DNA of 64,000 bases from Squalus acanthias (Eukaryota): assembly GCA_030390025.1 (NCBI GenBank), contig JASTWF010000330.1:248001-312000 (forward strand), in the 5' to 3' direction. The notes beneath the pieces were generated by a model. The model made no database searches, was not told the origin of the DNA, and worked only from the letters and a program-made list of their open reading frames with translations. Positions 1 to 55,312 of the stretch are shown piece after piece. Positions within the stretch are counted from its first letter, which is position 1, and each line of letters opens with the position of its first letter. A program made the translations under genes and the position numbers.

Positions 1-1248
1 GGAACTGTGTCCCTCTCCCCTCAGGAACTGCATCCCACTCCCCTCAGCAACTGCATCCCACTCCCCTCAGGAACTGCATCCCACTCCTCTCAGGAACTGC
101 ATCCCACTCTCCTCAGGAACTGCGTCCCACTCCCCTCAAGAACTGCGTTCTACTCCAATCAGGAACTGCATCCCACTCTCCTCAGGAACTGCGTCCCACT
201 CCCCTCAGAAACTGCGTCCCACTCCCCTCAGGAACCGCGTCCCACTCCCCTCAGGACCTGCGTCCCACTCCCCTCAGGACCTGCGTCCCACTCCCCTCAG
301 GAACTGCATCCCACTCCCCTCAGGAACCGCGTCCCACTCCTCTTAGGAACTGCGTCTCACTCTCCTCAGGAACTGCGTCCCACTCCTCTCAGTCTCCTCA
401 ACCCACTCCCGACAGTCTCCTCATCCTATTCGGATCAGTACCGTCATTCCACTTCCCTCAATCTCCTCATCCCACTACTTTCAGTCCCCTCATCCCACTC
501 CCCTTATTCTCCTCATCCCACTCCCCGCAGTCTCCTCATCCCACTTCCCTCAGTCCCCTCATCCTACTACCCTCAGTCTCCTCATCCCACTCCACTCAGT
601 CTCCTCATCCCACTCCCCTCAGTCCCCTCATCCCACTCCCCTCAGTCTCCTCATCCCACACCCCTCAGTCCCCTCATCCCACTTCGCCCAGTCCCGTCAT
701 CCCACTCCCCTCAGTCTCCTCATCCCACTTCCCTCAGTCTCCTCATCCCACTCCCCTCAGTCTCCTCATCCCACACAACTCAGTCTCCTCATCCCACTCC
801 CCTCAGTCTCCTCAACACACTTCCCTCAGTCCCCTCATCGCACTCCCCTCAGTCTCCTCATCCCACACACCTCAGTCTCCTCATCCCACTCCCCTCAGTC
901 ACCTCATCCCACTTCCCTCAGTCTCCTCATCTCACTCCCCTCAGTCTCCTCATCCCACACAACTCAGTCTCCTCATCCCACTCCCCTCAGTCTCCTCATC
1001 CCACTTCCCTCAGTCCCCTCATCCCACTCCGCTCAGTCTCCTCATCCCACTCCCCTCAGTCCCCTCATCCCACTTCCCTCAGTCCCCTCATCCCACTCCC
1101 CTCAGACTCCTCATCTCGCTCCCCTCAGACTCCTCATCTCGCTCCCCTCAGTCACTATACCCACTCACTCAGTAAGAGACTGGATGAGCTTTTCAGGAGT
1201 TACATTGGGTGAACAGAATGTACACAATGGACGGAACAAGACAGATAT

Positions 1249-1329
1249 CTGAGGCTGCAGAACCCACTGGGATAGTGGTTGAACGGTCAGTGGATTCTCG
1301 AGTCGACTGTGTTGTGGATGTGTCTGGAT
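1249..1329 (-). other. Stalk repeat exon copy with mutated splice donor (GT to AT)
   Basis: Acceptor intact; DPDTSTTQSTRESTDRSTTIPVGSAAS is followed by ATATCT instead of GTATCT (plus-strand t at 1248). Confidence 0.7.
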
Positions 1330-4300
1330 CTGAAATAAAAGAAGAGAGATTTGGGAGAGTGCAGAGTGGAGAACACCAGAACAGGTCATCAGGCTGGTAC
1401 TGGAGCCAATCGCAATCCCACTCACTCACTGCATCCCACTCCCCTCAGGAACCGCGTCCCACTCCCCTCAGGAACTGCGTCCCACTCCCCTCAGGAACTG
1501 CGTCCCACTCCCCTCAGGAACTGCGTCCCACTCCCCTCAGGAACTGCGTCCCACTCCCCTCAGGAACTGCGTCCCACTCCCCTCAGGAACTGCGTCCCAC
1601 TCCCCTCAGGAACTGTGTCCCTCTCCCCTCAGGAACTGCATCCCACTAACCTCTAGAACTGCGTCCCACTCCCCTCAGGAACTGCGTCCCACTCCCCTCA
1701 GGAACTGCGTCCCTCTCCTCTCAGGAACTGCATCCCACTCCTCTCAATCTCCTCAACCCACTTCACTCAGTCTCATCATCCCACCCTCCTAAGTCTCCTC
1801 ATCCCACTCCCGACAGTCTCCTCATCCCATTCAGATCAGTACCGTCATTCCACTTCCCTCAGTCTTCTCAGCCCACTCCCCTCAGTCTCCTCATCCCACT
1901 CCCCTCATTCTCCTCATCCCACTACCCTCAGTCTTCTCAGCCCACTCCCCTCTGTCTCCTTATCCCACTCACCTCAGTCTCCTCATTCCACTCCCCTCTG
2001 TCTCCTCATCCCACTCACATCAGTCTCCTCATTCCACTCCCCTCAGTCTCCTCATTCCACTCCCCTCAGTCTCCGCAGCACACTCCCCGCAGTCTCCTCA
2101 TTCCACTCCCTTCTGTCTCCTCATCCCACTCACATCAGTCTCCTCATTCCACTATCCGCAGTCTCCTCATCCCACTCCCCTCTGTCTCCTCATCCCACTC
2201 TCCTCAGTCTCCTCATCCCACTTCCCTCAGTCTCCTCATCCCACTCCCCTCAGTCTCCTCATCCCACTCCCCTCAGTCTCCTCATCCCACTCCCCTCAGT
2301 CTACTCATCCCACGCACCTGAGTCTCCTCATCCCACTCCCCGCAGTCTCCTCATCCCACTCACCTCAGTCTCCTCATCACACTCCCCTCAGTGTCCTCAT
2401 CCCACTCACCTCAGTCTCCTCATCCCACTCCTCTCATTCTCCTCATCCCACTCCCCTCAGTCTCCTCATCCCACTCCCCTCAGTCTCCTCATCCCACTCA
2501 CCTCAGTCTCCTCATCCCACTCCCCTCAGTCTCCTCATCCCACTCCCCTCATTCTCCTCATCCCACTCCCCTCAGTCTCCTCATCCAACTCCCCTCAGTC
2601 TCCTCATCCCACTCCCCTCAGTCTCCTCAACCCAGTTCCCTCAGTCTCCTCATCCCATTCCCCTCAGTCTCCTCATCCCACTCCATAAAGCCTCCTCATC
2701 CCACCCCCTCATTCTCCTCATCCCACTCCTCTCAGTCTGCCCATCCCACTCCCACTCAGTCTCCTCATCCCACTCCCCACATTCTCCTCATCCCTCTCTC
2801 CAGTCTCATCACACTACCCTCAGTCTCCTCATCACATTCGGCTCAGACACGTCATTCCACACCCCTCAGTCTCCTCATCCCACTCCGCTCAGACTCCTCA
2901 TCCCACTCCCCACAGCCTCCTCATCCCACTCCCCTCAGTCCCCTCATCCCACCACCCTCAGTCTCCTCATCCCACTCTCCTCAGTCTCCTCATCCCACTC
3001 TCCACAGTCTCCTCATCCCACTCCCACTCAGTCTCCTCATCCCACTCCCCACACTCTCCTCATCCCTCTCTCCAGTCTCCTCATCCCACTACCCTCAGTC
3101 TCCTCATCACACTCCCCTCAGTCTTCTCATCTCGCTCCCCTCAGTCACTATATCCACTCACTCAGTAAGAGCCTGGATGAGCTTTTCAGGAGTCACATTG
3201 GGTGAACAGACTGTACACAATGGACGGAACAAGACAGATACCTGAGTCTGCAGACCCCACTGGGATAGTGGATGAACGGTCAGTGGATTCTCGAGTCGAC
3301 TGTGTTGTGAATGCGTCCGGATCTGTAATAAAGGAAGAGAGACATGGGATAGTGCAGAGTGGAGAAAAGCAGAACAGGTCATCAGGCTGGTACTGGAGCC
3401 AATCACAATCCCACTCACTCACTGCGTCCCACTCCCCTCAGGAACCATGTCCCACTCTCCTCAGGAACTGCGTCCCACTCCCCTCAGGAACTGCGTCCCA
3501 CTCCCCTCAGGAACCGCGTCCCACTCCCCTCAGGAACCGCGTCCCTCTCCCCTCAGGAACCGCGTCCCACTCTCCTCTGAACTGCGTCCCATTCTACTCA
3601 GGAACTGCGTCCCATTCCCCTCAGGAACTGCGTCCCACTCTCCTCAGTCTTCTTATCCCACTCCGTCAGTCTCCTCATCCCATTCGGATCAATCTCCTCA
3701 TCCCACTCCCCTCAGTCTCCTCATCCCACTCCCCTCAGTCTCCTCATCCCACTCCCCTCAGTCTCCTCATCCCACTCCCCTCAGTGACCTCATCCTAATC
3801 CCCACAGCCTCCTCATCACACTCCCCTCAGTCTCCTCAACCCAGTTCCCTCAGTCTCCTCATCCCACTCCCCTCAATGTACTCATCCCGCTCCCCTCAGT
3901 CTCCTCGTCCCACTCCCCTGAGTCTCCTCATCCCAAAACCCCTCAGTCTCCTCATCCCACTCCATAAAGCCTCCTCATTCCACTCCCCTCTGTCTCCTCA
4001 TCCCACTCACATCAGTCTCCTCATTCCACTCCCCTCTGTCTCCTCATCCCACTCACATCAGTCTCCTCATTCCACTCCCCTCTGTCTCCTCATTCCACTC
4101 CCCTCAGTCTCCTCATCACACTCACATCAGTCTCCTCATTCCACTCCCCTCAGTCTCCTGATCCCACTCACATCAGTCTCCTCATTCCACTTCCCTCAGT
4201 CTCCTCAGCCCACTCCCCTCAGTCTCCTCATTCCACTCCCCTCAGTCTCCTCATTCCACTCCCCTCAGTCTCCTCATCCACTCCCCTCAGTCTCCTCATT

Positions 4301-7300
4301 CCACTCCCCTCAGTCTCCTCATTCCACTCCCCTCAGTCTCCTCATCCCACTCACCTCAGTCTCCGCAGCCCACTCCCCTCAGTCACCTCATTCCACTCCC
4401 CTCAGTCTCCTCATCCCACTCCCCTCAGTCTCCTCATTCCACTCCCCTCAGTCTCCTCATCCCACTCCCCTCAGTCTCCTCATCCCACTCCCCTCAGTCT
4501 CCTCATCCCACTCCCCTCAGTCTCCTCATCACACTCCCCTCAGTCTCCTCATCCCACGCCCCTCTGTCTCCTCAGCCCACTCCCCTCAGTCTCTTCATCC
4601 CACTCCCCTCGGTCTCCTCATCCCACTCACATCAGTCTCCTCATTCCACTCCCCTCAGTCTCCTCATTCCACACCCCTCAGTCTCCTCATTCCACTCCCC
4701 TCAGTCTCCTCATTCCACTCCCCTCAGTCTCCTCATTCCACACCCCTCAGTCTCCTCATCACACTCCCCTCTGTCTCCTCAACCCACTACCCTCAGTCTC
4801 CTCAAGTCGCTTCCCATATTCTCCTCATTCCACTCCCCATAGTCTCCTCATTCCACTCCCCATAGTCGCCTCATTGCACTACCCTCAGTCTCCTCATCCC
4901 GCTTCCCATATTCTCCTCATTCCACTCCCCATAGTCTCCTCATTCCACTCCCCTCAGTCTCCTAGTCCCACTCCCCACCGTCTCCTCATTCCACTCCCCT
5001 AAATCTCCTCATCCACTCCCCACAGTCCCCTCATCCCTCTCTCCAGTCTCCTCATCTCACTACCCTCAGTCTCCTCATTCAAATCCCCTCATTCTCCTCA
5101 TCCCACTCCCCACAGTCACCTCAGTCAACTCCCCACCGTCTCCTCATCTCACTCCCCTAAGTCTCCTCATCCCACTCCCCACAGTCTCCTCATCACTCTC
5201 TCCAGTCTCCTCTTCCCACTATCCACAGACTCCTCATCTAACTCCCCTCAGTCTCCTCAACCCGGTTCGCTCAGTTTCCGGATCCCACTCGCCGCAATGT
5301 ACTCATCGCGCTCCCCTAAGTCTCCTCGTCCCACTCCCGAGTCTCCTCATCCCATTCCCCTCAGTCTGCTCTTCCCACTCCATAAAGTCTCCTCATCCCA
5401 CTCCCCACAGTCTCCTCATCCCACTCCCCTCAGTCTCCTCATCCCACTCCCCTCAGTCTCCTCATCCCACTCCCCTCAGTCTCCTCATCCCACTCCCCTC
5501 AGTCTCCTCCTCCCACTCCCCTCAGTCTCCTCCTCCCACTCCCCTCAGTCTCCTCCTCCCACTCCCCTCAGTCTACTCATCCCACACACCTGAGTCTCAT
5601 CATCCCACTCCCCACAGTCTCCACATCCCACTCCCCTCAGTCTCCTCATCCCACTCCCCTCAGTCTCCTCATCCCACTACCCTCAGTCTCCTCATCCCAC
5701 TCCCCTCAGTCTCCTCATCCCGCTCCCCTCAGTCTCCTCATCCCGCTCCCCTCAGTCTCCTCATCCCGCTCCCCTCAGTCTCCTCATCCCACTCCCCTCA
5801 GTCTCCTCATCCCACTCTCCTCAGTCTCCTCATCTCGCTCCCCTCAGTCACTATACCCACTCACTCAGTAACATACTAGATGAGCTTTTCAGGAGTCACA
5901 TTGGGTGAACAGACTGCACACAATGGACGGAACAAGACAGATACCTGAGGCTGCAGACCCCACTGGGATAGTGGATGAACGGTCAGTGGATTCTCGAGTC
6001 GACTGTGTTGTGAATGCGTCCGGATCTGTAATAAAGGAAGAGAGACATGGGATAGTGCAGAGTGGAGAAAAGCAGAACAGGTCATCAGGCTGGTACTGGA
6101 GCCAATCACAATCCCACTCACTCACCGCGTCCCACTCCCCTCAGGCACTGCATCGCACTCCCCTCAGGAACCGTGTCCAACTCCCCTCAGGAACCGTGTC
6201 CCACTCCCCTCAGGAACTGCGTCCCACTCTCCTCTGAACTGCGTCCCACTCCCCTCAGGAACCGCGTCCCACTCCCCTCAGGAACTGCTTCCCACTCTCC
6301 TCAGGCGCTGCGTCCCATTCCCCTCAGGAACTGCGTCCCACTCCCCTCAGGAACTGTGTCCCACTCTCCTCAGTCTTCTCATCCCATTCGGATCAATCTC
6401 GTCATTCCACTCCGCTCAGTCTCCTCGTCCCACTACTATTAAGTCCCCTCACCCTACTCTCCACTGTCCCCTCATCCCACTCCCATCAGTCTCCTCATCC
6501 CACTCCCCTCAGTCTCCTCATCCCACTCCCCTCAGTCTCCTCATCCCACTCCCCTCAGTCCCCTCATTCTACTCGCCACAGCCTCCTCATCACACTCCCC
6601 TCAGTCTCCTCAACCAAGTTCCCTCAGTCTCCTCATCCCACTCCCCTCAATGTACTCATCCCGCTCCCCACAGTCTCCTCGTCCCACTCCCAAGTCTCCT
6701 CATCCCATTCCTCTCAGTCTCCTCATCCCACTCCATAAAGACTCCTCATCCCACCCCCTCAGTCTCCTCATCCCACTCCTCTCAGTCTACTCATCCCACT
6801 CCCACTCAGTCTCCTCATCCCACTCCGCTCAGACTCCTCATCCCACTCCCCCCAGACTCCTCATCCCACTCCCCTCAGTCTCCTCATCCCACTCCCCTCA
6901 GTCTCCTCATCCCACTCCCCTCAGTCACCTCATCCTAATCCCCACAGACTCCTCATCACACTCCCCTCAGTCTCCTCATCCCACTCCCCTCAGTCACCTC
7001 ATCCTAATCCCCACAGACTCCTCATCACACTCCCCTCAGTCTCCTCAACCCAGTTCCCTCAGTCCCCTCATCCCACTCCCCTCAATGTACTCATCCCGCT
7101 CCCCTCAGTCTCCTCGTCCCACTCCCCCGAGTCTCCTCATCCCATTCCCCTCAGTCTCCTCATCCCACTCCATAAAGCCTCCTCATTCCACTCCTCTCTG
7201 TCTCCTCATCCCACTCACATCAGTCTCCTCATTCCACTTCCCTCAGTCTCCTCAGCCCACTCCCCTCAGTCTCCTCATTCCACTCCCCTCTGTCTCCTTA

Positions 7301-10300
7301 TCCCACTCACCTCAGTCTCCTCATTCCACTCCCCTCTCTCTCCTCATCCCACTCACATCAGTCTCCTCATCCCACTCCCCTCAGTCTCCTCATCCCACTC
7401 CCCTCAGTCTCCTCATCCCACTCTCCTCAGTCTCCTCATCCCACTCTCCTCAGTCTCCTCATCCAACTCCGCTCAGTCTCCTCATTCCACTCCCCTCAGT
7501 CTCCTCATCCCACTCCCCTCAGTCTCCTCATCCCACTCCCCTCAGTCTCCTCATCCCACTCCCCTCAATCTCCTCATCATACTCCCCTCAGACTCCTCAT
7601 CTCGCTCCCCTCAGTCACTATACCCACTCACTCAGTAAGAGACTGGATGAGCTTTTCAGGAGTCACATTGTGTGAACAGACTGTACAGAATGGATGGAAC
7701 AAGACAGATACCTGAGGCTGCAGACCCCACTGGGATAGTGGATGAACGGTCAGTGGATTCTTGAGTCGACTGTGTTGTGGATGTGTCCGGATCTGCATGA
7801 AAGGAGGAGAGACATGGGAGAGTGCAGATGGAGAAAACCAAAACAGGTCATCAGGCTGGTACTGGAGCCAATCACAATCCCACTCACTCACTGCGTCCGA
7901 CTCCCCTCAGGAACCATGTCCCACGCTCCTCAGGCAATGCGTCCCACTCCCCTCAGGAACCGAGTCCAACTCCCCTCAGGAACTGCGTCCCACTCTCCTC
8001 TGAACTGCGTCCCACTCCCCTCAGGAACAGCGTCCCACTCCCCTCAGGAACTGCGTCCCACTCCCCTCAGGAACTGCGTCCCACTCCCCTCAGGCGCTGC
8101 GGCCCATTCCCCTCAGGAACTGCGTCCCACTCTCCTGAGTCTTCTCGTCCCACTCCGTCAGTCTCCTCATCCCATTCGGATCAATCTCGTCATTCCACTC
8201 CGCTCAGTCTCCTCGTCCCACTACTATTAAGTCCCCTCACCCTACTCTCCGCTGTCTCCTCATCCCACTCCCATCAGACTCCTCATCCCACTCCCCTCAG
8301 TCTCCTCATCCCACTCCCCTCAGTCCCCTCATCCTACTCCCCACAGCCTCCTCATCACACTCCCCTCAGTCTCCTCAACCAAGTTCCCTCAGTCTCCTCA
8401 TCCCACTCCCCTCAATGTACTCATCCCGCTCCCCACAGTCTCCTCGTCCAACACCCCTGAGTCTCCTCATCCCATTCCCCTCAGTCTTCTTATCCCACTC
8501 CATAAAGCCTCCTCATCCCACCCCCTCAGTCTCCTCATCCCACTCCTCTCAGTCTACTCATCCCACTCCCCACAATCTCCTCATCCCTCTCTCCAGTCTC
8601 CTCATCCCACAACCCTCAGTCTCCTCATCACATTTGGCTCAGACACGTCATTCCACTCCCCTCAGTCTCCTCATCCCACTCCCCTCAGACTCCTCATCCC
8701 ACTCCCCTCAGACTCCTCATCCCACTCCGCTCAGACTCCTCATCCCACTCCCCCCAGACTCCTCATCCCACTCCCCTCAGTCTCCTCATCCCACTCCCCT
8801 CAGTCTCCTCATCCCACCCCCCTCAGACTCCTCATCTCACTCCCCTCAGACTCCTCATTCCACTCCTCTCAGTCTCCTCATCCCACTCCCCTCAGAATCC
8901 TCATCCCACTCCCCTCAGTCTCCTCATCCCACCCCCCTCAGACTCCTCATCTCGCTCCCCTCAGTCACTATACCCACTCACTCAGTAAGAGCCTGGATGA
9001 GCTTTTCAGGAGTCACATTGGGTGAACAGACTGTACACAATGGACGGAACAAGACAGATACCTGAGGCTGCAGACCCCACTGGGATAGTGGATGAACGGT
9101 CAATGGATTCTTGAGTCGACTGTGTTGTGGATGTGTCCGGATCTGAAATAAAGGAAGAGAGACATGGGAGAGTGCAGAGTGGAGAAAACCAGAACAGGTC
9201 ATCAGGCTGGTGCTGGAGCCAATCACAATCCCACTCACTCACTGCGTCCGACTGCCCTCAGAAACTGCGTCCCACTCTCCTCTGAACTGCGTCCCACTCC
9301 CCTCAGGAACTGCGTCCCACTCCCCTCAGAAACTGCGTCCCACTCTCCTCTGAACTGCGTCCCACTCTCCTCTGAACTGCGTCCCTCTCCCCTCAGGAAC
9401 TGCATCCCACTCCTCTCAGTCTCCTCAAACCACTTCACTCAGTCTCCTCATCCCACCCTCCTCAGTCTCCTCATCCCACTCCCGACAGTCTCCTCATCCC
9501 ATTCGGATCAGTACCGTCATTCCACTTCCATCAATCTCCTCATCCCACTCCGCTCATTCTCCTCAGCCCACTGCCCTCAGTCTCCTCATTCCGCTCCCCT
9601 CAGTCTCCTCATCCCACTCCCCACCATCTCCTCTTCCTGCTCCCCACCGTATCCTCATTCCACTCCCCTAAGTCTCCTCATCCCACTCCCCACAGTCTCC
9701 TCATCCCTCTCTCCAGTCTCCTCATTCCACTGCCCACCGTCTCCTCATCTCACTCCCCTAAGTCTCCTCATCCCACTCCCCACAGTCTCCTCATCCCTCT
9801 CTCCAGTCTCCTCATTCCACTGCCCACCGTCTCCTCATCTCACTCCCCTAAGTCTCCTCATCCAACTCCCCTCAGTCTCCTCAAACCAGTTCCCTCATTC
9901 TCCTGATCCCACTCCCCTCAATATACTCATCCCGCTCCCCTAAGTCTCCTCGTCCCACTCCCGAGTCTCCTCATCCCATTCCCCTCAGTCTCCTCATCCC
10001 ACCCCATAAAGTCTCCTCATCCCGCTCCCCTACGTCTCCTCATCCCACCCCATAAAGTCATAAAGTCTCCTCATCCCGCTCCCCTACGTCTCCTCATCCC
10101 ACTCCCCTCAGTTTCAAATCCCACTTCCCACAGGCTCCTCATCCCACTCCCCAGTCTCCTCATCCCACACCCCTCAGACTCATCATCACACTCCCCACAG
10201 TGTCCTCATCCCACTCCCGAGTCTCCACATTGCACTCCCCTCAGTCTCCTCATCCCACACCCCTCAGACTCATCATCACACTCCCCACAGTGTCCTCATC

Positions 10301-13300
10301 CCACTCCCGAGTCTCCACATTGCACTCCCCTCAGTCTCCTCAACCGTTCCCCTCCGACAACTCATCCCACTCTCCTCAGTCTCCACATTCCACTCCCCTC
10401 AGACTCATCCCGCTCCCCTCAGTCTCCTCATCCCACTCCCCTCAGTCTCCTCATCCCACTACCCACAGTCTCCTCATCCCACTTCCCACAGTCTCCTTAT
10501 CCCTCTCTCCAGTCTCCTCATCCCACTACCCTCAGTCTCCTCATCACATTCGTCTCAGACACGTCATCCCACTTCCCTCACTCCTCATCCCACTCCCCTC
10601 AGACTCCTCATCTCACTCGCCTCAGTCTCCTCATCCCACTCCCCTCAGTCTCCTCATCCCACTCCCCACAGTCTCCTCATCCCACTTCCCTCAGTCTCCT
10701 CATTCCACTACCAGCAGTCTCCTCATCCCTCTCTCCAGTCTCCTCATCCCACTCCCCTCAGTCTCCTCATCCCACTCCACTCAGTCTCCTCATCCCAATC
10801 CACGCAGTCTCCTCATCCCACTCCCCTCAGTCTCCATATCCCACTCACCTCAGTCTCCTCATCCCACTTCCCTCAGTCTCCTCATCCCACTCCCCTCAGT
10901 CTCCTCATTCCACTCCCCACAGTCTCCTCATCCCTCTCTCCAGTCTCCTCATCCCACTCCCCTCAGTCTCCACATCCCACTCACCTCAGTCTCCTCATCT
11001 CACTCCCCTCAGTCACTATATCCACTCACTCAGTAAGAGACTGGATGAGCTTTTCAGGAGTCACAGTGGGTGAACAGACTGTACACAACGGACAGAACAA
11101 GACAGATACCTGAGGCTGCACCACCCAGTGGGATAGTATTTGAACGGTCAGTGGATTCTCGAGTCGACTGTGTTGTGGATGTGTCCGGATCTGAAATAAA
11201 GGAAGAGAGACATGGGAGAGTGCAGAGTGGAGAAAACCAGAACAGGTCATCAGGCTGGTACTGGAGCCAATCACAATCCCACTCACTCACTGCGTCCCAC
11301 TCCCCTCAGGAACCGTGTCCCACTCTCCTCAGGAACTGCGTCCCACTCCCCTCAGGAACTGCGTCCCACTCCCCTCAGGAACTGCGTCCCACTCACCTCA
11401 GGAACTGCGTCACACTCCCCTCAGGAACTGCGTCCCACTCCCCTCAGGAACTGCGTCCCACTCCCCTCAGGAACTGCGTCCCACTCCCCTGAGTCTCCAC
11501 ATTCCACCCCACTCAGTCTCCTCAACCCAGTTCCCTCAACCTCCTCATCCCACTCCCCTCAATGTACTCATCCCGCTCCCCTAAGTCTCCCCGTCCCACT
11601 CCCGTCAGTCACCTCATCCCATTCCCCTGTCTCCACATCCCACTCCATAAAGCCTCCTCATCCCACTACCCGCAGTCTCCTCATCCCACTGCCCTCAGTC
11701 TCCTCATCACACTCCCCACAGTCTCCTCATCCCACTCCTCACAGTCTCCTCATCCCACTACCCTCAGTCTCCTCATCTCACTCCCCTCAGTCTCCTCATC
11801 CCACTGCCCTCAGTCTCCTCATCTCAATCCCCTCAGTCTCCTGATCCCACTGCCCTCAGTCTCCTCATCTCAATCCCCTCGGTCTCCTCATCCCACTCCC
11901 CTTAGTCTCCTCATCACACTCCCCACAGTCTCCTCATCCCACTCCCCGCAGTCTCCTCATCCCACTCCCTTCAGTCTCCTCATCTCACTCCCCTCAGTCT
12001 CCTCATCCCACTGCCCTCAGTCTCCTCATCTCACTTCCCTCAGTCTCCTCATCCCACTCCCCTCAGTCTCCTCATCCCACTCCCCTCAGTCTCCTCATCC
12101 CACTCCCCATAGTCTCCCCATCCCTATCCCCTCAGTCTCCTCATCCCACTCTCCTCAGTCTCCGCATCCCACTCCCCTCAGTCTCCTCATCCCACTCTCC
12201 TCAGTCTCCTCATCCCACTCCCCGCAGCCTCCTCATCCCACTCCACTCAGTCTCGTCATCCCACTCCTCATTCTCATCACATTCCCCTCAGTCTCCTCAT
12301 CACACTCCCCTCAGTCTCCTCATCCCACTGCCCTCAGTCGCGTCATCCCACTCCCCTCAGTCTCGTCATCCCACTCCCCTCAGTCTCCTCATCCCACTGC
12401 CCTCAGTCTCGTCATCCCACTCCATAAAGTCTCCTCAACCCACTCCCCTCCATCTCCTCATCCGCTCTCCTCAGTCTCCTCATCCCACTGCCCTCAGTCT
12501 CGTCATCCCACTCCATAAAGTCTTCTCAACCCACTCCCCTCCATCTCCTCATCCGCTCTCCTCAGTCTCCTCTTCCCACTGCCCTCAGTCTCGTCATCCC
12601 ACTCCATAAAGTCTCCTCAACCCACTCCCCTCCATTTCCTCATCCGCTCTCCTCAGTCTCCTCATCGCACTCCCCAGTCTCCTCATCCCACTATCCTCAG
12701 TCTCATCACATTCGGCTCAGTCTCGTCATCCCACTTCCCTCAGTATCCTCATCCCACTCCCCACAGTCTCCTCACCCCGCTCCCCTACGTCTCCTCATCC
12801 CACTCTGCACAGTCTCCTCATCCCACTCCGCTCAGTCACTCATCCCACTCCCCTCAGTCTACTCATCCCAGTTCCCTCAGTCTCCTCATCCCACTCCCCT
12901 CAGTCACCTCATCCCACTCACCTCAGTCTACTCATCCCGCTCCCCAAAGTCACCTCGTCCCACTCCCCTCAGTCTCATCACACTCCCCTCAGTCTCCTCA
13001 TCACACTCCTCTCAGTCTCATCACACTCCCCTCAGTCTCCTCATCCCACTCCCCTCAGTCTCCTCATTCCCCTCCCCTCAGTCTCCTCAATCCACTCCCC
13101 ACCATCTCCTCATCCCACACACCTCAGTCTCCTCTTCCCACTCCCCTCAGTCTCCTCTTCCCACTCCCCTCAGTCTCCTCTTCCCACTCCCCTCAGTCTC
13201 CTCTTCCCACTCCCCTCAGTCTCCTCTTCCCACTCCCCTCAGTCTCCTCTTCCCACTCCCCTCAGTCTCCTCATTCCCCTCCCCTCAGTCTCCTCATCCC

Positions 13301-16300
13301 ACTCCCCTCAGTCTCCTCATTCCCCTCCCCTCAGTCTCCTCAATCCACTCCCCACCATCTCCTCATCCCACACACCTCAGTCTCCTCTTCCCACTCCCCT
13401 CAGTCTCCTCTTCCCACTCCCCTCAGTCTCCTCATCCCACTCCCCTCAGTCTCCTCATCCCACTCCCCTCAGACCCCTCATCCCACTCCCCCACTCTCCT
13501 CCTCCCACTCCCCTCACTCACTGCATCCCTCTCCCCTCAGATGGAGCCTGAATGATTCTCAGTGACTCAGCTTTTCAGGAGTCACATTGCCTGAACAGCC
13601 TGTATAGACGGCGCACCACAAGACCGATACCTGAGGCTGCAGACCCCGCTGGGATAGTGGATGAATCGTCAGTGGCTTCTTGATTCGGTGGTTGCTCGTG
13701 TTCCTGAGATGTGGATGTCTCTGGATCTGTAATAAAGTGAGAGACACATGGGAGAGTGGAGGAGTGAAGAACAGCAGATCAGATCACTAGGCTGGTACTG
13801 GAGTACAGAGTGTGTCTGACACCAGTCTTTATATAAACCAGAATACTCCAATCCTATTCCCCGTGACATGGGAGAGTGGAGGATTGAAGAACAGCACATC
13901 AGATCACCAGTCTGGTACTGGAGTACAGAGTGTGTCTGACACCAGTCTTTATATTAACCAGAATACTCCAATCCCATTCCCCGTCACCTGTAAAGCCTGT
14001 AGAGGGAGCCTGCGGTGCCCAGCACTAGACTTTGGGCGAGGCGCGCCCGTGGGTGCTGGAGAGCCGCTGGGTCGTGCGTAAACATCTTGGGGCGTTTTAC
14101 TACATTGAAGGCGCTATATAAATTCAAGATGTTGTTTTTGTTGTTGCTGCAGCTCTGTACTTGGGGCCTCTCGCGATCCGTGGGCACTGCAGGGAACAGA
14201 GTGTCCGATAGAGACTGAGAACAGCGTCTGATTCAGTTCCCTATAGCTTAGGCGAAAAGTAAAGTTCGTGTTTCAGATCCTTCACTCATTACACAAAGGA
14301 GGGGCACGTGTAACTGTGTTATTTCTGTTGATGACACGGGACATCCCAGAGTCACCCCTCTTGGTCAGTTATAAACAGACACGTACCTGTGCAATAAGCA
14401 TAGTTGTACCAGCGTGTGGGCTTCAACTCATAAACAAAGTAACTGGAGCAGTTTTTGACCTTTATCTCCCGGGACCAGTGGCAGGAACTTTCAAACCAGT
14501 GAAAACAAACTGTCCTCGTCACTTCACCCTGTACCACGGTGGGATGAGCTCCTGAAATGAGGTTTGTAAATATTGAAGAATGCAAACACAGTGAACAGTG
14601 CGGAACAGTGTATGTGAATCAGGTATTATAAAGTCTGAAAGTACCGTTTAACCAGCCTGGAGCGTTTGTGGAGCAGTGCATCTCTGGGACATCCGTCTCG
14701 GGAATCTTCCATCCACCAGAACTGAAACAAAAATCACAGAGTCAGACCCTGAGCTGATGAACCTTATTAACTGACAGAAAGACTGGGACCGGCAGAGAGT
14801 AACAGAAACTGGGGCCCATCCTTTATACTCTGTCCCCATTCTATATTCCCCTCTATCCCAGGTATCTCCCTTTACTCTCTTTCCATGCTCTATATTCCCC
14901 TCTATCCCGGGTATCTCCCTTTATTCTCTGTATCCGTTCTGTATATCCCCTCTATCCCGGGTATCTCCCTTTACTCTCTGTCCCGGTTCTATATTCCCCT
15001 CTATCCCGGGTATCTCCCTTTACTCTCTGTCGCTGTTCTATATAGCCCTCTATCCCAGGTATCTCCCTTTACTCTCTGTCCCCATTCTATATTCCCCTCT
15101 ATCCCGGGTATCTCCCTTTACTCTCTGTCCCCGTTCTATGTTCCCCTCTATCCCGGGTATCTCCCTTTACACTCTGTCCTCGTTCTATATTCCCCTCTAT
15201 TCCGGGTATCTCCCATTACTCTCTGTCCCCGTTCTATATTCTCCTCTATCCCGGGAATCTCCCTTTACTCTCTGTCCCCGTTCTATATTCCCTCTTTCCC
15301 GGGTATCTCCCTTTACTCTCTTTCCACGTACTATATTCCCTCTATCCCGGGTATCTCCCTTTACTCTCTGTCCCCGTTCTATATTCCCCTCTATCCCAGG
15401 TATCTCCCTTTACTCTCTGTCCCCGTTCTATATTCCCCTCTATCCCGGGTATCTCCCTTTACTCTCTGTCCCCGTTCTATATTCCCATCTATCCCGGGTA
15501 TCTCCCTTTACTCTCTGTCCCCGTTCTATATTCCCCTCTATCCTGGGTATCTTCCTTTACTCTCTATTTCCGATCTATATTCCCCTCTATCCCGGGTATC
15601 TCCCCTTTACTCCCTGTCCCCGTTCTATATTCCCCTCAATCCCGGGTATCTCCCTTTACTCTCTGTCCCCGTTCTATATTCCCCTCTATCCCGGGAATCT
15701 CCCTTTACTCTCTGTCCCCGTTCTATATTCCCCTCTATCCCGGGTATCGCCCTTTACTCTCTGTCCCCGTTCTATATTCCCTCTATCCCGGGTATCTCCC
15801 TTTACTCTCTGTCCTCGTTCTATATTCCCCTCTATCCCGGGTATCTCCCTTTACACTCTGTCCCCGTTCTATATTCCCTTCTATCCCAGGTATCTCCCTT
15901 TACTCTGTGTCCCCGTTCTATATTCCCCTCTATCCCGGGTAACTCCTTCACTCTCTGTCCTCGTTCTATATTCCCCTCTATCCCGGGTATCTCTCTTTAT
16001 TCTCCGTCCATGTTCTATATTCCCCTCTATCCCGTGTATCTCTCTTTATTCTCCGTCCATGTTCTATATTCCCCTCTATCCCGGGTATCTCCCTTTACTC
16101 TCTGTCCCCGTTCTTTATTCCCCTCAATCCCGGGTATCTCCATTTACTCTCTGTCCCTGTTCTATATTCCCTTCTCTCCCGGTTATCTCCCATTACTCTC
16201 TGTCCCCGTTCTATATTCCCCTCTATCCCAGGTATCTCCCTTTACTCTCTGTCCCCGTTCTATATTCCCCTCTATCCCGGGTATCTCCCTTTACTCTCTG

Positions 16301-19300
16301 TCCCCGTTCTATATTCCCCTCTATCCCGGGTAACTCCCTTTACTCTCTGTCCCCGTTCTATATTCCCCTCTATCCTGGGTATCTCCCTTTACTCTCTGTC
16401 CCCGTTCTATATTCCTCTCTATCCCGGGTATCTCCCTTTACTCTCTGTCCCCGTTCTATATTTCCCTCTAACCCGGGTATCTCCCTTTACTCGCTGTCCC
16501 CGTTCGATATTCCCCTCTATCCCGGGTAACTCCCTTTACTCTCTGTCCCCGTTCTATATTCCCCTCTATCCCGGGTATCTTCCTTTACTCTCTGTCCCCG
16601 TTCTATATTTCCCTCTAACCCGGGTATCTCCCTTTACTCTCTGTCCCTGTTCTATATTCCCCTCTATCCCGGGAATCTCCCTTTACTCTCTGTCTCCGTT
16701 CTATATTCCCCTCGATCCTGGGTATCTCCCTTTACTCTCTGTCCCTGTTCTATATTCCCCTCTATCCCGGGAATCTCCCTTTACTCTCTGTCTCCGTTCT
16801 ATATTCCCCTCTATCCCGGGTAACTCCCTTTACTCTCTGTCCCCGTTCTATATTTCCCTCTAACCCGGGTATCTCCCTTTACTCTCTGTCCCTGTTCTAT
16901 ATTTCCCTCTATCCGGGTATCTCCCTTTACTCTCTGTCCCCGTTCTAAATTCCCCTCTATCCCGCGTATCTCCCTTTTCTCTCTGTCCCCGTTCTATATT
17001 CCCCTCCATCCCGGGTATCTCCCTTTACTCTCTATCCTCATTCTATATTCCCCTCTATCCCGGGTATCTCCCTTTACACTCTGTCCCCGTTCTATATTCC
17101 CTTCTATCCCAGGTATCTCCCTTTACTCTGTGTCCCCGTTCTATATTCCCCTCTATCCCGGGTAACTCCTTCACTCTCTGTCCTCGTTCTATATTCCCCT
17201 CTATCCCGGGTATCTCCCATTACTCTCTGTCCCCGTTCTATCTTCCCCTCTATCCCGGGTATCTCCCTTTACTCTCTGTCCCCGTTCTATCTTCCCCTCT
17301 ATCCCGGGTATCATCTTCACTCTCTGTCCTCGTTCTATATTCCCCTCTATCCTGGGTATCCAACTTTACTCTCTGTCCCCGTTCTATATTCCCCTCTATC
17401 CCGGGTATCTCCCTTTACTCTCTGTCCCCGTTCTATATTCCCTCTTTCCCGGGTATCTCCCTTTACTCTCTGTCCACGTACTATATTCCCTCTATCCCGG
17501 GTATCTCCCTTTACTCTCTGTCCCCGTTCTATCTTCCACTCTATCCCGGGTAACTCTCTTTACTCTCTGTCCCCGTTCTACATTCCCCTATATCCCGGGT
17601 ATCTCCCTTTACTCTCTGTCCCGTTCTATATTCCCCTCTATCCCGGGTATCTCCCTTTACTCTCTGTTCCCGTTCTATATTCCCTCTATCCCGGGTATCT
17701 CCCTTTACTCTCTGTTCCCGTTCTATATTCCCCCTATCCAGTGTTTCCCCCTTTACTCTCTGTGTTTCTCTCTTGTAGAGTCCGATTGTTCCCCTTTCCC
17801 TGTATCCAATCCCTGCCACATTCCTCTGATTGATAATCCCGGTCTCCCAGCAGTTTCCATTCTTGCACTCACACCTGGTTCTATTTTTTACATTTACTCC
17901 TCACGTATCAACTAGTTTATCTCTAATTTTCCCTTTACATTACCTTTGAAATCTGTACCATCCGTAGTCAAGATTCTTATCACTCATCAGCTCGCCAGAG
18001 CATTGCGTCCCACTGCAATCCGTGCTCCTCCAGGACTGGTCCAGGACTGTGTGATTTACACACGGGTCAGTGAGTGCGGAGCCTGCGACTGAGTGACAGA
18101 AAGATGGTTAATGTTGGCTTCTACCCCCCGGAAGTACCAATAAACTCAGGTTCACTCTCCACCCTGCTAGAAAATTCCCCAAGTTAAAGTTGGACACATT
18201 CCTCCTTCTCTAAACCAGGTGAGAGATATTCTGGGGTATCTCAGTCCCCAGGTGAACACTGAGTGCAGATGGTGAGGGACACTCGATGGGCAGTGAGAGA
18301 TATCACGGGGTATCTCAGTCCCCAGGTGAACACTGAGTGCAGATGGTGAGGGACACTTGATGGGCAGTGAGAGATATCACGGGGTATCTCAGTCCCCAGG
18401 TGAACATTGAGTGCAGATGGTGAGGGACACTCGATCGTCAGTGAGAGATATCATGGGGTATCTCAGTCCCCAGGTGAACACTGAGTGCAGATGGTGAGGG
18501 ACACTCGATGGTCAGTGAGAGATATCATGGGGTATCTCAGTCCCCAGGTGAACACTGAGAGCAGATGGTGAGGGACACTCGATGGTCAGTGAGAGATATC
18601 ATGGGGTATCTCAGTCCCCAGGTGAACACTGAGTGCAGATGGTGAGGGACACTCGATGGTCAGTGAGAGATATCATGGGGTATCACAGTCCCCAGGTGAA
18701 CACTGAGTGCAGATGGCGAGGGACACTCGATCGTCAGTGAGAGATATCATGGGGTATCTCAGTCCCCAGGTGAACACTCAGTGCAGATGGTGAGGGACAC
18801 TCGATTTTCAGTGTGAAATTGTTTGAAAACACAACTTCAGATTCCACGTTTATGCCGATGACACCCAGCTCTACATAAATTTCTGCAACTTAAAATATTG
18901 AGAAGACCAAAGCCATTGTCTTCGGTCCCCGCCACAAGCTCCATCCCTCTTCCTGGCCACTGTGTGAGACTGCAAATGGCTGTTCGCAACCTGGTGTCCT
19001 ATTTGTCCCTGAGATGAGCTTCTGGACCCATATCCTCTCCCTCACTGACAACACCTACTTCTACCTCCGTAATATCTCCCGTCTCTGCTCCTGCCTCAGC
19101 TCATCTGCTGCTGAAACCCTCATCCGTGCCTTTCCTATCTCTAGACTGGATTATTCCAATACACTGCTGTCTGGCCTCCCATCATCCACACTCCATAAAC
19201 TTGAGGTCATCCAAAACTCTGCTGCCTGTGTCCTCACTCTCACCAAGTCCCGTTCACCCATCACCTTTGTGCTCGCTGACCTACACTGGCTCCCGGTCTG

Positions 19301-22300
19301 ACAATGCCTCCATTTTACAATTCTCATCCCTCAACGGTCTCGCCCCTCCCTCGCAATGTAACCTCCTCCAGCACTACAACCCTTCGAGATCTCTGCGCCC
19401 CTCCAATTCTGGCCTCTTGCGCCTACTCGATCTCATTCACACCACCATTGGCGGCTGTGCCTTCAGCTGCCTGGGCCCTAAGCTCTGGAATTCCCTCCCT
19501 AAACCTCTCCGCCTCTCTCTCCTCCATTAAGACGCTCCTTCAAACCAAAATCACACCTGTCCAAACATCACCGAATGTGGCGCGGCGTCAAATTTTCTAT
19601 CTGATTCCTCTCCTGTGATGTGCCTTGGGACGTTTTACTATGTTAAAGACATTTATAAAATGCAACATGTCGCTGTTGCTGTTCTTGCAATGCACGCCCC
19701 TCAGTCACTGCATCCCAATCCCCTAAAACACAACAAGCCACGCCCCTCAGCCGCTGCATCCCAATCCCCTAAAATACAATAACAAGCCACGCCCCTCAGT
19801 CATGCATTGCTGCCCCTGGTCACCTCAGCCCACAACCCACAGTGTGCCCTGGAGACTGAGCGTGCGGTGCCCAGCGCTACACTCGGGGTGAATCGCGACC
19901 CACGGGCACTGCACGGTGCAGCGTGTTCAACAGACACGGAGAACACAGCCTGATTCAGTTCCCTATAGTTCTGGTGAAAATAAACTAAATGCTTCAGTTC
20001 TTTCATTCCTTGTGCCCCTTGCACAAAGGAGGGGCGCGTGTAACTTTGTTATTTCTGTTGATGAAATGGGACATCCCAGAGTCACCCCTCTGGGTCAGTT
20101 ATAAACAGCCACGTACCTGTGCAATAAGCATAGTGACACCAGCGTGTCGGCTTCAACTCATAAACAAAGTAACTGGAGCAGTTTTTGACCTTTATCTCCC
20201 GGGACCAGTGGCAGGATTTTCAAACCAGTGAAAACAAACTGTCCTCGTCACTTCACCCTGTCCCACGGTGGGATGAGCTCCTGAAATGAGGTTTGTAAAT
20301 ATTGAAGAATGTAACCGATGTGAACAGTGCGGGACAGTGAATGTAAATCTGATATTATAAAATCTGAAAGTACCCTTTAACCAGCCTGGATATTTTGTGC
20401 AGCAGTGATGGATTGGGACAACAGTCTCCGGAATCTTCCATCCACCAGAACTGAAACAACAATCACAGAGTCAGCCCCTGAACTGATGGACCTTATTAAC
20501 TGATAGAAAGACTGGGACCGGCAGAGAGTAACAGAAACTGGGGCCCGTCCTTTACTCTCTGTCCCCGTTCTATAATCACCTCTATCCCGGGTATCTCCCT
20601 TTACACTCTGTCCCCATTCTATATCCCCTCTATCCTGGCATCTCCCTTTACTCTCTGTCCCCGTTCTATAATCACCTCTATCCCGGGTATCTCCCTTTAC
20701 TCTCTTTCCATGCTCTATATTCCCCTCTATCCCGGGTATCTCCCTTTATTCTCTGTATCCGTTCTGTATATCCCCTCTATCCCGGGTATCTCCCTTTACT
20801 CTCTGTCCCGGTTCTATATTCCCCTCAATCCCGGGTATCTCCCTTTACTCTCTGTCCCCGTTCTATATTCCCCTCTATCCCGGGTATCTCCCTTTACTCT
20901 CTGTCCCCGTTCTATATTCCCCTCTATCCCGGGTATCTCCCTTTACTCTCTGTCCCCGTTCTATATTCCCCTCTATCCCGGGTATCTCCCTTTACTCTCT
21001 GTCCCCGTTCTATATTCCCCTCTATCCCAGGTATCTCCCTTTACTCTCTGTCCCCGTTCTATATTCCCCTCTATCCCGGGTATCTCCCTTTACTCTCTGT
21101 CCCCGTTCTATATTCCCCTCTATCCCGGGTATCTCCCTTTACTCTCTGTCCCCGTTCTATATTCCCCTCTATCCCGGGTATCTCCCTTTACTCTCTGTCC
21201 CCGTTCTATATTCCCCTCTATCCCGGGTATCTCCCTTTACTCTCTGTCTCCGTTCTATATTCCCCTCTATCCCGGGTATCTCCCTTTACTCTCTGTCCCC
21301 GTTCTATATTCCTCTCTTTCCCGGGTATCTTCCTTTACTCTCTGTCCCCGTTCTATATTCCCCTCTATCCCGGGTATCTCCCTTTACTCTCTGTCCCCGT
21401 TCTATATTCCTCTCTTTCCCGGGTATCTTCCTTTACTCTCTGTCCCCGTTCTATATTCCCCTCTGTCCCGGGTATCTCCCTTTACTCTCTGTCCCCGTTC
21501 TATATTCCTCTCTTTCCCGGGTATCTTCCTTTACTCTCTGTCCCCGTTCTATATTCCCCTCTGTCCCGGGTATCTCCCTTTACTCTCTGTCCCCGTTCTA
21601 TATTCCCCTCTGTCCCGGGTATCTCCCTTTACTCTCTGTCCCCGTTCTATATTCCTCTCTTTCCCGGGTATCTTCCTTTACTCTCTGTCTCCGTTCTATA
21701 TTCCCTCTATCCCGGGTATCTGCCTTTACTCTCTGTCCCCATTCTATATTCCCCACTATCCCGGGTATCTCCCTTTACTCTCTGTCTCCGTTCTATATAC
21801 CCCTCTATCCTGGGTATCTCCCTTTACTCTCTGTCCCCGTTCTATATTCCCCTCTATCCCGGGTATCTCCTTTTACTCTCTGTCCCCGTTCTATATTGCT
21901 CCTCTATCCTGGGTATCTCCCTTTACTCTCTGTCCCTGTCCTATATTCGCCTCTATCCCGGGTATCTCCTTCACTCTCTGTCCTCGTTCTATATTCCCAT
22001 CTATCCCGGGTATCTTCCTTTACTCTCTGTCCCCGTTCTATATTGCTCCTCTATCCCGGGTATCTCCCTTTACTCACTGTCCCTGTTCTATATTCCCCTC
22101 TATCCCGGGTATCTCCCTTTACTCTCTGTCCCCGTTCTATATTCCCCTCTATCCCGGGTATCTCCTTCACTCTCTGTCCTCGTTCTATATTCCCCTCTAT
22201 TCCTGGTATCACCCTTTACTCTCTGTACCCGTTTTATATTCCCCTCTATCCCGGGTAACTCCCTTTACTCTCTGTCCACGTTCAATATTCCCCTCTATCC

Positions 22301-33256: not shown

Positions 33257-33398
33257 CTCACGGAGTGATATTCTGGAAAGGAAAATGCAGAATTAGTGTC
33301 AGAGAGCTTGAAGGGGATGGGGGATCCGAGGGAAATTTAAATAGGGAGTGCGACAGGCAATCATTGAGAACATCTATCTATAGTGGGTGAGCTTTAAC

Positions 33399-36841: not shown

Positions 36842-37115
36842 CAGAGTCTCCAAATGGAGGTGTCGCTGTGTGAGATGGAGTGGGCTCAGTTCACTGCACC
36901 CTCCTCAGTCTCAGGTATAATCTGCTGTGAGTGGTGTCGGACTCATTGACAGCTCATCCACCGTTACCAATCACATCGGGGACACGTGTGACTGGCGGCA
37001 GTGCTGGTTGGCTGACACATTATCATGTATAAATGATCCACAATATGGCGGAATCCATGCAAATTAAAGACGTTTAGTGAAATAACCTGAGCTAAACAAA
37101 CAAGTAAACATCGCT
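36842..37115 (-). promoter_or_regulatory. Candidate non-coding first exon and promoter of the D10C gene
   Basis: Unique sequence with a strong minus-strand donor CTG|GTAAGC (exon end 36842). Nearby are an octamer ATGCAAAT (37057-37064), a YY1-like CGCCATATT (-) and forkhead-like TAAACA/GTAAACA repeats near 37093-37110. The ATG exon has an acceptor, so an upstream exon is expected. Confidence 0.4.
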
Positions 37116-51401: not shown

Positions 51402-51901
51402 NNNNNNNNNNNNNNNNNNNNNNNNNNNNNNNNNNNNNNNNNNNNNNNNNNNNNNNNNNNNNNNNNNNNNNNNNNNNNNNNNNNNNNNNNNNNNNNNNNN
51501 NNNNNNNNNNNNNNNNNNNNNNNNNNNNNNNNNNNNNNNNNNNNNNNNNNNNNNNNNNNNNNNNNNNNNNNNNNNNNNNNNNNNNNNNNNNNNNNNNNNN
51601 NNNNNNNNNNNNNNNNNNNNNNNNNNNNNNNNNNNNNNNNNNNNNNNNNNNNNNNNNNNNNNNNNNNNNNNNNNNNNNNNNNNNNNNNNNNNNNNNNNNN
51701 NNNNNNNNNNNNNNNNNNNNNNNNNNNNNNNNNNNNNNNNNNNNNNNNNNNNNNNNNNNNNNNNNNNNNNNNNNNNNNNNNNNNNNNNNNNNNNNNNNNN
51801 NNNNNNNNNNNNNNNNNNNNNNNNNNNNNNNNNNNNNNNNNNNNNNNNNNNNNNNNNNNNNNNNNNNNNNNNNNNNNNNNNNNNNNNNNNNNNNNNNNNN
51901 N
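51402..51901. other. Assembly gap (500 N)
   Basis: Exactly 500 N, a round placeholder length. Confidence 0.99.
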
Positions 51902-55114: not shown

Positions 55115-55208
55115 GTGGGTGATTTACAATGATCAGCAGGTCTGTGCCTCGGAGAAGCCTCCCAAGGACCTAGGCTACATCTACTTCTACCAGAGAGCTG
55201 GGAGCTAA
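55115..55208 (+). CDS. usp5: Ubiquitin carboxyl-terminal hydrolase 5 (isopeptidase T), last coding exon only
   Basis: ccctcag|G TGG..: (R)[30 protein letters not shown]. This matches the recalled USP5 C-terminus ([27 protein letters not shown]) better than USP13 (..SERPPKDLGYMYFYRR). Confidence 0.9.
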
Positions 55209-55312
55209 GGACCATCCGGCCACTTATTTATTGTACAGACCCAGGCCGAATCTCCAGGACTAACAGGCCGCTGGGGGATGTGGGGGGGTGGGGGGAGGGG
55301 TTTAAATTTGGA

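What the first reader, a model, noticed from the sequence alone, without database searches (positions are those of the whole stretch)
1..13726. Exon-carrying higher-order minisatellite repeat that could tune stalk length
Seen: each unit is an 81-nt symmetric phase-1 exon with flanks, plus two ordered 23-bp minisatellite variants. Exon spacings are 1993, 2703, 1767, 1350, 2048 and 2521 bp. All six copies keep the 81-nt length and an open frame while the surrounding satellite varies widely. The window starts in the caggaac-type variant that follows each exon block, implying at least one more copy to the left. Inference: unequal crossover in the intronic VNTR adds or removes 27-aa units in frame, unlike classical mucins whose repeats usually lie within one large exon.
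Basis: partly seen in the sequence, partly recalled or inferred. Interest (0 to 1): 0.8.

Follow-up and report, generated by a model that had tools for sequence, protein, structure and literature searches.

The report
Shark spacer exons duplicated with minisatellite
A shark-type gene for a likely secreted, uromodulin-like protein carries at least seven small look-alike exons, each separated by satellite DNA, that would build a variable-length, probably sugar-coated spacer; the structure is real, but repeat-per-exon spacers are known from chicken mucins and human IgG3, and expanded spacers recur in this gene family across sharks and rays.

Summary
The array is real, but the description needs correcting. 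There are seven minus-strand exon blocks. Six are 81 nt; the first, U7 (13631-13726), is 96 nt. U1 (1249-1329) has AT where the GT donor should be. Each intron holds a run of one 23-bp variant, then a run of the other. Copies differ too much to be an assembly echo.

The exons follow a signal-peptide exon and two uromodulin/GP2-type D10C (D8C) domains. The gene belongs to a large elasmobranch family with no ZP module and, in relatives, no membrane anchor, so 'spacer' fits better than 'stalk'. Spacer expansion is common in relatives, and their annotated isoforms often drop exactly one unit. RNA-like contigs under the same species label join unit to unit, but come from a paralogue or copies outside the window.

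Units are mosaics, with exchange points in both the satellite and the exon block. The exon is no better conserved than its flanks, so the kept frame reflects recent duplication, not shown selection. A frameshift in D10C-1 may mean decay. Allelic copy-number variation and a driving role for the satellite were not testable. Precedents: chicken Muc13 and MUC2, IGHG3 hinge exons.

The parts
33223..33272 (-). Exon with start codon and most of a signal peptide (MRTLLLILGYL), ends in phase 1
   Evidence: near-identical N-terminus in Mustelus P0003
22798..22942 (-). D10C domain 1, exon a (145 nt); keeps Cys C2, lacks the GP2-N65-type sequon
20374..20450 (-). D10C domain 1, exon b (77 nt)
20117..20280 (-). 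D10C domain 1, exon c: 164 nt instead of 165, frameshift and early stop (real or an assembly slip); can be skipped in frame
17944..18088 (-). D10C domain 2, exon a (145 nt); DPCVNHT sequon at the position of GP2 N65; Cys C2 lost
   Evidence: GP2 numbering from PMC8930769
14645..14721 (-). D10C domain 2, exon b (77 nt)
   Evidence: PF23283, E 0.024; a spliced b-c joint in a related contig
14387..14551 (-). D10C domain 2, exon c (165 nt); Cys C9 lost together with C2
   Evidence: PF23283 E 4.2e-8; GP2 7p6r E 1.1e-9
14150..24116 (.). Tandem duplication of the three-exon D10C cassette (offset about 5.7 kb near 14150/19872), each copy with 49-bp and 73/74-bp intronic minisatellites
13631..13726 (-). 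Spacer exon U7, 96 nt (32 aa), the family-typical length; likely template of the 81-nt copies
   Evidence: best match: the 32-aa units of Heterodontus P0043, P0044, P0048
11110..11190 (-). Spacer exon U6, 81 nt, AG/GT
9062..9142 (-). Spacer exon U5, 81 nt, AG/GT
7712..7792 (-). Spacer exon U4, 81 nt, AG/GT
5945..6025 (-). Spacer exon U3, 81 nt, DAF type, AG/GT
3242..3322 (-). Spacer exon U2, 81 nt, DAF type, AG/GT; recombinant-looking block
1249..1329 (-). Spacer exon U1, 81 nt, donor mutated to AT (likely skipped or dead)
10..13540 (.). 23-bp intronic minisatellite in two ordered variants (caggaac run, then cagtctc run on +), G-rich on the transcribed strand, interrupted by unique exon blocks of about 275 bp

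Best explanation
This is the spacer region of a shark gene for a likely secreted uromodulin/GP2-type protein: a signal-peptide exon and two D10C domains are followed by one 96-nt and at least six 81-nt symmetric exons that would be spliced in series into a predicted disordered, Ser/Thr-rich and probably O-glycosylated spacer. Shown: the exons, their phases, the domains upstream, homology of the units to spacer units of shark and ray proteins, and the mosaic make-up of the 1.35-2.7 kb units. Inferred: a 96-nt exon lost 15 nt, its intron filled with a 23-bp G-rich minisatellite, and the exon-plus-intron unit was multiplied by in-register unequal exchange. Breakpoints fell both in the satellite and in the exon block, and frame is kept automatically because every unit is phase 1-1. 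Length would vary at two levels: exon copy number (untested) and skipping of single exons (seen in annotated isoforms of relatives). The satellite is most likely a passenger and a homology platform, since satellites fill most long introns of this gene. Function, by analogy with GP2, uromodulin and teleost omcins: a mucosal decoy whose glycosylated D10C heads are held away from a small C-terminal domain.
For: D8C_UMOD match and GP2/UMOD structures. 39 of 59 hits are shark or ray proteins (13 species) with D8C domains and no ZP Pfam. Their tails are arrays of 28-34-aa units; 22 of 40 carry an exactly repeated 10-mer, up to 11 copies. U7 and U4 each align above shuffled controls (p<0.01) with 12 of 40 family proteins. 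In 8 of 23 RefSeq isoform comparisons the shorter form lacks exactly one unit of 28-34 aa (automatic models, their RNA support not checked). In run X2, 3 contigs leave the stretch exactly at the U7 donor (13631) and continue into the start of a unit-type exon; in X3 a joint removes a net 93 nt, the length of the predicted b-c intron. AlphaFold of relative P0043: two confident D10C domains, spacer pLDDT below 50. Mosaicism: 12 of 36 informative-site pairs are incompatible; the U2/U3 identical run has P 0.0034, about 0.05 after correction for 15 pairs; the best donor switches along units H2 and H3. D10C-2 lost C2 and C9 together, as do 46 of 81 family domains (domains are related, not independent), and keeps the N65-type sequon.
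Against: No laid contig is 99% or more alike to 13530-14820 (0 of 395, 363 and 450), and the spliced-in exon start differs at 5 of 30 letters from U6 (compared by eye). So this gene copy is not shown to be expressed. The runs are only guessed to be RNA and also hold intronic paralogue sequence. D10C-1 exon c is frameshifted and U1 has lost its donor. There is no sign of purifying selection on the spacer exons. The 3' end of the gene lies outside the window, so the missing anchor and missing ZP are borrowed from relatives, searched only at 407-1295 aa. Mosaicism in the unique block is only borderline significant, and satellite patchwork could also come from turnover within single introns.
Confidence: 0.7

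Rival explanations
1. The locus is a decaying paralogue in a large birth-and-death cluster, and the exon array is a neutral by-product of satellite instability that makes no protein.
For: Frameshift in D10C-1 exon c, dead U1 donor, pN at least as large as pS. No near-identical RNA contig.
Against: Exon c, or the whole first cassette, can be skipped in frame, and relatives have such isoforms (54-70 aa and 130 aa). D10C-2 and U2-U7 are intact with canonical sites. The 1-nt loss sits beside short runs of A and T and may be an assembly slip.
Confidence: 0.2
2. One reading: the intronic VNTR is the crossover hot spot and yields common alleles with different exon numbers, tuning a membrane-anchored stalk under selection.
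For: Best-donor switches do occur inside the satellite: in H3 the exon block is like H2, the early satellite like H4, the later satellite like H2. The satellite is G-rich on the transcribed strand (G4Hunter mean 1.06-1.14). IGHG3 shows that such alleles can exist (PMC8674132, passages).
Against: One switch lies in the unique block. The satellite is 87% of the unit, so no enrichment is shown. Only 1 of 38 relatives' tails has a hydrophobic 19-mer above 1.5 (internal, in a doubtful model), against 5 of 5 uromodulin-like controls. No selection signal on the exons.
Confidence: 0.1
3. The array is an assembly expansion of one or two real units.
For: Very repetitive region. No DNA run holding the stretch was available to check.
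Against: Unique blocks differ pairwise at 8-22 of about 295 sites. The longest exact match between units is 175 bp, and 252 of the distinct satellite variants are private to one intron against 40 shared. Relatives carry similar expansions.
Confidence: 0.03

Closest known systems
Chicken Muc13 (Lang et al. 2006, PMC1552070; passages read)
   Same: Mucin-type segment in which each exon encodes one near-identical repeat (at least 12 repeats of 20 aa); the authors propose length control by recombination and by splicing.
   Different: Muc13 has SEA, TM and cytoplasmic parts; here the heads are D10C and relatives have no anchor. The passages read do not describe minisatellite-filled introns.
Chicken MUC2 (PMC3549977; passages read)
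   Same: Ten repeat cassettes spread over exons 32-45, with repeated flanking genomic elements between the exons.
   Different: Gel-forming VWD mucin; 69-aa cassettes interspersed with CysD domains.
Human IGHG3 hinge exons (PMC8674132; passages read)
   Same: Spacer built from small exons in a repeated genomic element; alleles with 2-5 exons change length in 15-aa steps.
   Different: Unit about 200 bp, and allelic variation is proven there; here units are 1.35-2.7 kb, mostly satellite, and allelic variation is untested.
Teleost omcins (zebrafish omc1-15; PMC11415648; abstract and passages read) and human GP2/uromodulin (PMC8930769; passages read)
   Same: D10C domains (tandem in omc5), clustered multigene family, antibacterial role; N65-type sequon present in D10C-2.
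   Different: Omc5, GP2 and UMOD have EGF and ZP modules (omc5 predicted GPI-anchored); the shark and ray relatives have instead an exon-repeat spacer and a small C-terminal domain with no significant match.
RefSeq models of sharks and rays named 'uncharacterized', 'mucin-5AC-like' or 'uromodulin-like' (e.g. Heterodontus XP_067884563, Mustelus XP_078062216, Amblyraja XP_032879434)
   Same: Same family and architecture, homologous spacer units, independent expansions to as many as 11 near-identical units, isoforms that differ by one unit.
   Different: Units there are mostly 30-34 aa; the 27-aa unit was not seen among them. Their introns could not be inspected, so satellite filling is unknown there.

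Membership tests
Uromodulin/GP2/omcin (D10C + ZP proteins) | D10C/D8C domain | tested here: met
   PF23283 E 4.2e-8 above cut-off; GP2 and UMOD chains
Uromodulin/GP2/omcin (D10C + ZP proteins) | EGF + ZP polymerisation module after D10C | tested here: inconclusive
   None in the window; the 3' end lies outside it. None of 39 shark/ray hits carries a ZP Pfam (407-1295 aa only)
Uromodulin/GP2/omcin (D10C + ZP proteins) | C-terminal GPI signal or TM segment | tested here: inconclusive
   Not visible for this gene; 37 of 38 relatives' tails lack a hydrophobic 19-mer above 1.5, while 5 of 5 controls have one
Uromodulin/GP2/omcin (D10C + ZP proteins) | N-glycan site that binds FimH (GP2 N65 position) | tested here: inconclusive
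   Sequon present in D10C-2, absent in D10C-1 (numbering); glycan type and binding not testable
Elasmobranch ZP-less tandem-D10C spacer proteins (RefSeq models only) | Signal peptide followed by tandem D10C domains | tested here: met
Elasmobranch ZP-less tandem-D10C spacer proteins (RefSeq models only) | Array of homologous 27-34-aa Ser/Thr/Pro/Glu units after the last D10C | tested here: met
Elasmobranch ZP-less tandem-D10C spacer proteins (RefSeq models only) | Small C-terminal domain of about 55 aa | not testable with these tools
   Left of the window; no genome is held
Muc13-type mucins with one repeat per exon | Pro/Thr/Ser-rich repeat, one per exon | tested here: met
   Ser+Thr 11-13 and Pro 2 of the 26 fully encoded residues per 81-nt exon
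Muc13-type mucins with one repeat per exon | SEA domain and TM segment | tested here: inconclusive
   Not in the window; no SEA match in 12 relatives' C-termini or 12 whole proteins and no TM. Works like it; not filed as a member
IGHG3-type exon copy-number polymorphism | Alleles that differ in exon number | not testable with these tools
   One haplotype only; no DNA holder was listed

The most novel reading that the evidence does not exclude
The G-rich 23-bp satellite does double duty. It seeds unequal exchange that changes exon number between alleles, and its dense G runs (63-74 per kb on the pre-mRNA) act as intronic splicing enhancers for the weak CAG|GTATCT donors, so that satellite length sets how often each exon is included. 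A VNTR would then tune both the genomic and the spliced length of the spacer of a secreted, ZP-less antibacterial decoy family peculiar to sharks and rays.
Probability: 0.12. Interest if true: 0.65.

Novelty: new variant of a known kind. Interest (0 to 1): 0.33.

Why it matters
It gives the genomic anatomy behind the variable spacers seen in many automatically annotated shark and ray proteins: one exon per unit, multiplied together with its intron. The family itself (tandem D10C heads, no ZP, no anchor) turned up in none of my literature searches and may be a mucosal defence family parallel to the teleost omcins. The array also keeps a readable record of exchange in its satellite variants, so long reads could test whether intronic minisatellites drive exon copy number or only ride along. 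As a principle, exon-per-repeat spacers are not new.

Tried and rejected
No whole genome is held for the window, so the left part of the array and the C-terminus were not seen. RNA search on 13530-14820: no RNA holder listed; three same-species-label runs were laid once, at 85% likeness.

U7 peptide against 1.84 billion representatives: 0 hits (31 aa, low complexity, uninformative). C-terminal domain of relatives: no Pfam family shared by more than 1 of 12 members, no meaningful PDB sequence match, one long helix in the model and no Foldseek match at E below 0.001, Atlas hit only 0.76. A SEA-like fold was my guess and is not supported; the wider VIA search was not run.

U12-type intron for the ATATCT/GTATCT donors: considered and rejected by eye against the recalled consensus (positions +6/+7 do not fit, no branch motif at the right distance). 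Selection on exon length: rejected as unsupported.

Literature: searches for D8C/D10C or uromodulin-like proteins in sharks listed no paper on this family; only the top 15-20 listings were seen, and searches were swamped by general shark papers. A search for tandem exon duplication with minisatellites found 0 uses of that phrase in the 15 of 19 papers listed. The shark microchromosome search gave 1 unrelated paper. Xenopus FIM mucins: PMC7177656 says only that FIM-C.1 is polymorphic through alternative splicing (passages). PMC4948705 passages added nothing. No supplements were read; subscription papers are not searched. Look-ups of earlier findings near the locus and by sequence gave nothing.
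Full report
Observation. On the minus strand each block holds an exon-like segment with a pyrimidine tract and AG, in phase 1 at both ends. Six are 81 nt. The most upstream, U7 (13631-13726), is 96 nt; the six align to it with one 15-nt gap. U2-U7 have CAG|GTATC donors, whereas U1 (1249-1329) has CAG|ATATCT and only poor cryptic GTs nearby. In 7 of 7 satellite segments a run of 8-17 caggaac units precedes a run of 33-96 cagtctc units. The window starts in a caggaac run, so another block to the left is likely.

Not an assembly echo. Unique blocks differ at 8-22 of about 295 sites, the longest exact match between units is 175 bp, and 252 satellite variants are private to one intron against 40 shared. 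Raw DNA reads were not available, so this rests on sequence alone.

The gene. Upstream on the same strand lie a signal-peptide exon (33223-33272) and two three-exon cassettes (22942-20117 and 18088-14387) that arose by a tandem duplication. Exon c of the second matches Pfam D8C_UMOD (E 4.2e-8) and human GP2 and uromodulin. Using the GP2 numbering of PMC8930769 (passages), domain 2 has lost both partners of the C2-C9 disulfide, as have 46 of 81 family domains (21 keep both; related sequences, so not independent). It keeps a sequon at the position of the FimH-binding N65. Domain 1 exon c is one base short and frameshifted. That is either decay or an assembly slip. Skipping it keeps the frame, and relatives have isoforms that skip exon c or a whole domain.

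The family. 39 of 59 hits to a skate homologue are shark or ray proteins from 13 species, with D8C domains and no ZP Pfam (lengths 407-1295 aa only). Typically they have a signal peptide, several D10C domains, a spacer of 28-34-aa units and a C-terminal domain of about 55 aa. 22 of 40 tails contain exact internal repeats, up to 11 copies in Mustelus P0026, and two-unit higher-order repeats occur in skates, rays and bamboo sharks. U7 and U4 align with these units, best with Heterodontus and Mustelus; 12 of 40 proteins beat shuffled controls at p<0.01 for each query. Only 1 of 38 tails has a hydrophobic 19-mer above 1.5 (internal, in a doubtful model), against 5 of 5 uromodulin-like controls. 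A model of P0043 has two confident D10C domains that match GP2, a low-confidence spacer and a C-terminal helix with no significant fold match. So the segment is more likely the spacer of a secreted protein than a membrane stalk; this is borrowed from relatives, since the gene's own end was not seen.

Splicing. In 8 of 23 RefSeq isoform comparisons the shorter form lacks exactly one unit (28, 32 four times, 34 three times). These are automatic models whose RNA support I did not check. No RNA holder was listed for this locus. In three runs under the same species label, guessed to be RNA, no contig was 99% or more alike (0 of 395, 363, 450; most laid on a short high-depth repeat at 14086-14146). 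However, three contigs of X2 stop fitting exactly at the U7 donor and continue into the start of a unit-type exon; the consensus differs at 5 of 30 letters from U6 (by eye). One such record is 80 plus 31 letters long with 6 differences to U7, as an 81-nt exon of U3 or U5 type would give. A contig of X3 lacks a net 93 nt at the predicted b-c intron. Unit-to-unit splicing is thus shown for the family under this species label, from a paralogue or from copies outside the window, not for the copies seen here.

How the array grew. The units are patchworks. U2 equals U5 for 93 bp from 3154 and U3 for 175 bp from 3248, which puts a switch inside the exon block. 12 of 36 informative-site pairs are incompatible, and the U2/U3 run is borderline after correction (P 0.0034 times 15). 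Within the satellite, unit H3 goes from H2-like (exon block) to H4-like (6399: 3 mismatches against 24 for the next best) and back to H2-like (6859, 7043). Exchange therefore happens in both parts. With 87% of each unit being satellite, there is no evidence of a hot spot. Nor is the exon specially protected: p-distance 6.6% against 5.1% and 5.9% in the flanks, pN 0.075 against pS 0.053, and zero indels expected with P 0.66. Satellites are also a regional habit: unrelated 49-, 73/74-, 52- and 44-bp arrays lie in the other long introns of the same gene. Two weak copies of the 23-bp motif at 19702 and 19748, downstream of D10C-1, suggest that the motif was present before the expansion (inference).

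Comparison. One repeat per exon, with length control by recombination or splicing, was described for chicken Muc13 (PMC1552070, passages). Chicken MUC2 has cassettes over exons 32-45 with repeated flanks (PMC3549977, passages), and IGHG3 alleles carry 2-5 hinge exons (PMC8674132, passages). The closest functional parallel is the teleost omcin cluster (PMC11415648, abstract and passages), which keeps EGF and ZP. An earlier unchecked note from this scan describes a 28-exon, satellite-filled array of the same family about 140 kb away (e1-8036335), so this locus is not the extreme case even in its own genome. My searches listed no paper on the elasmobranch family or on this exact satellite-plus-exon arrangement; coverage is limited to open-licence papers and the top listings.

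Verdict. A real, correctly spotted exon array whose mechanism class is known. New here are the family context and the ordered two-variant satellite that records the exchanges. Adaptive tuning by the VNTR, allelic variation, a membrane stalk and expression of this very copy are all unproven. Interest 0.33.

Noticed in passing
window 20117-20280 and 17944-18088 / 14387-14551: The two D10C cassettes have diverged in kind: copy 1 keeps C2 and C9 but is frameshifted; copy 2 lost both cysteines and has the N65-type sequon, which copy 1 lacks. Exon b differs at 14 of 77 bases, exon a at 12 of 145, exon c at 6 of 165, the short b-c intron at 11 of 93.
   Followed up: partly
window 13746-13984: 120-bp two-copy duplication of the acceptor-side flank of U7; the upstream copy carries no exon.
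   Followed up: no
window 14086-14146: Short, very high-depth repeat fragment in the intron before U7; a related contig in run X2 lacks 130 bp here (14029-14158), suggesting a paralogue without the insertion.
   Followed up: no
window about 36842-37100, minus strand: Possible non-coding first exon with a GTAAGC donor, upstream of the signal-peptide exon; not verified.
   Followed up: no
window 55116-55210, plus strand: Last coding exon of a neighbouring gene beyond the 500-N gap (51402-51901); it resembles the end of USP5/USP13 (recalled, not searched).
   Followed up: no
window about 24380-25580, plus strand: Retroelement fragment that by eye looks like a Penelope-type reverse transcriptase end with a GIY-YIG-like part (recalled, not searched).
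   Followed up: no
window about 30020-31690: Insert of about 1.7 kb with TG...CA ends that splits a LINE-like fragment; possibly a solo LTR (by eye only).
   Followed up: no
P0002, P0003, P0021, P0026, P0030, P0043, P0054 and other relatives, last 41-64 aa: A C-terminal domain without Pfam or PDB match, in two subtypes, shared by many of the elasmobranch relatives; predicted as one long helix with flanking extended segments, possibly for oligomerisation.
   Followed up: partly
window 10-13540, minus strand: The satellite has G4Hunter means of 1.06-1.14 and 63-74 GGG runs per kb on the pre-mRNA strand; the 49-bp satellite of the a-b intron has a similar run density (70 per kb), a non-satellite intron stretch 9.5.
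   Followed up: partly
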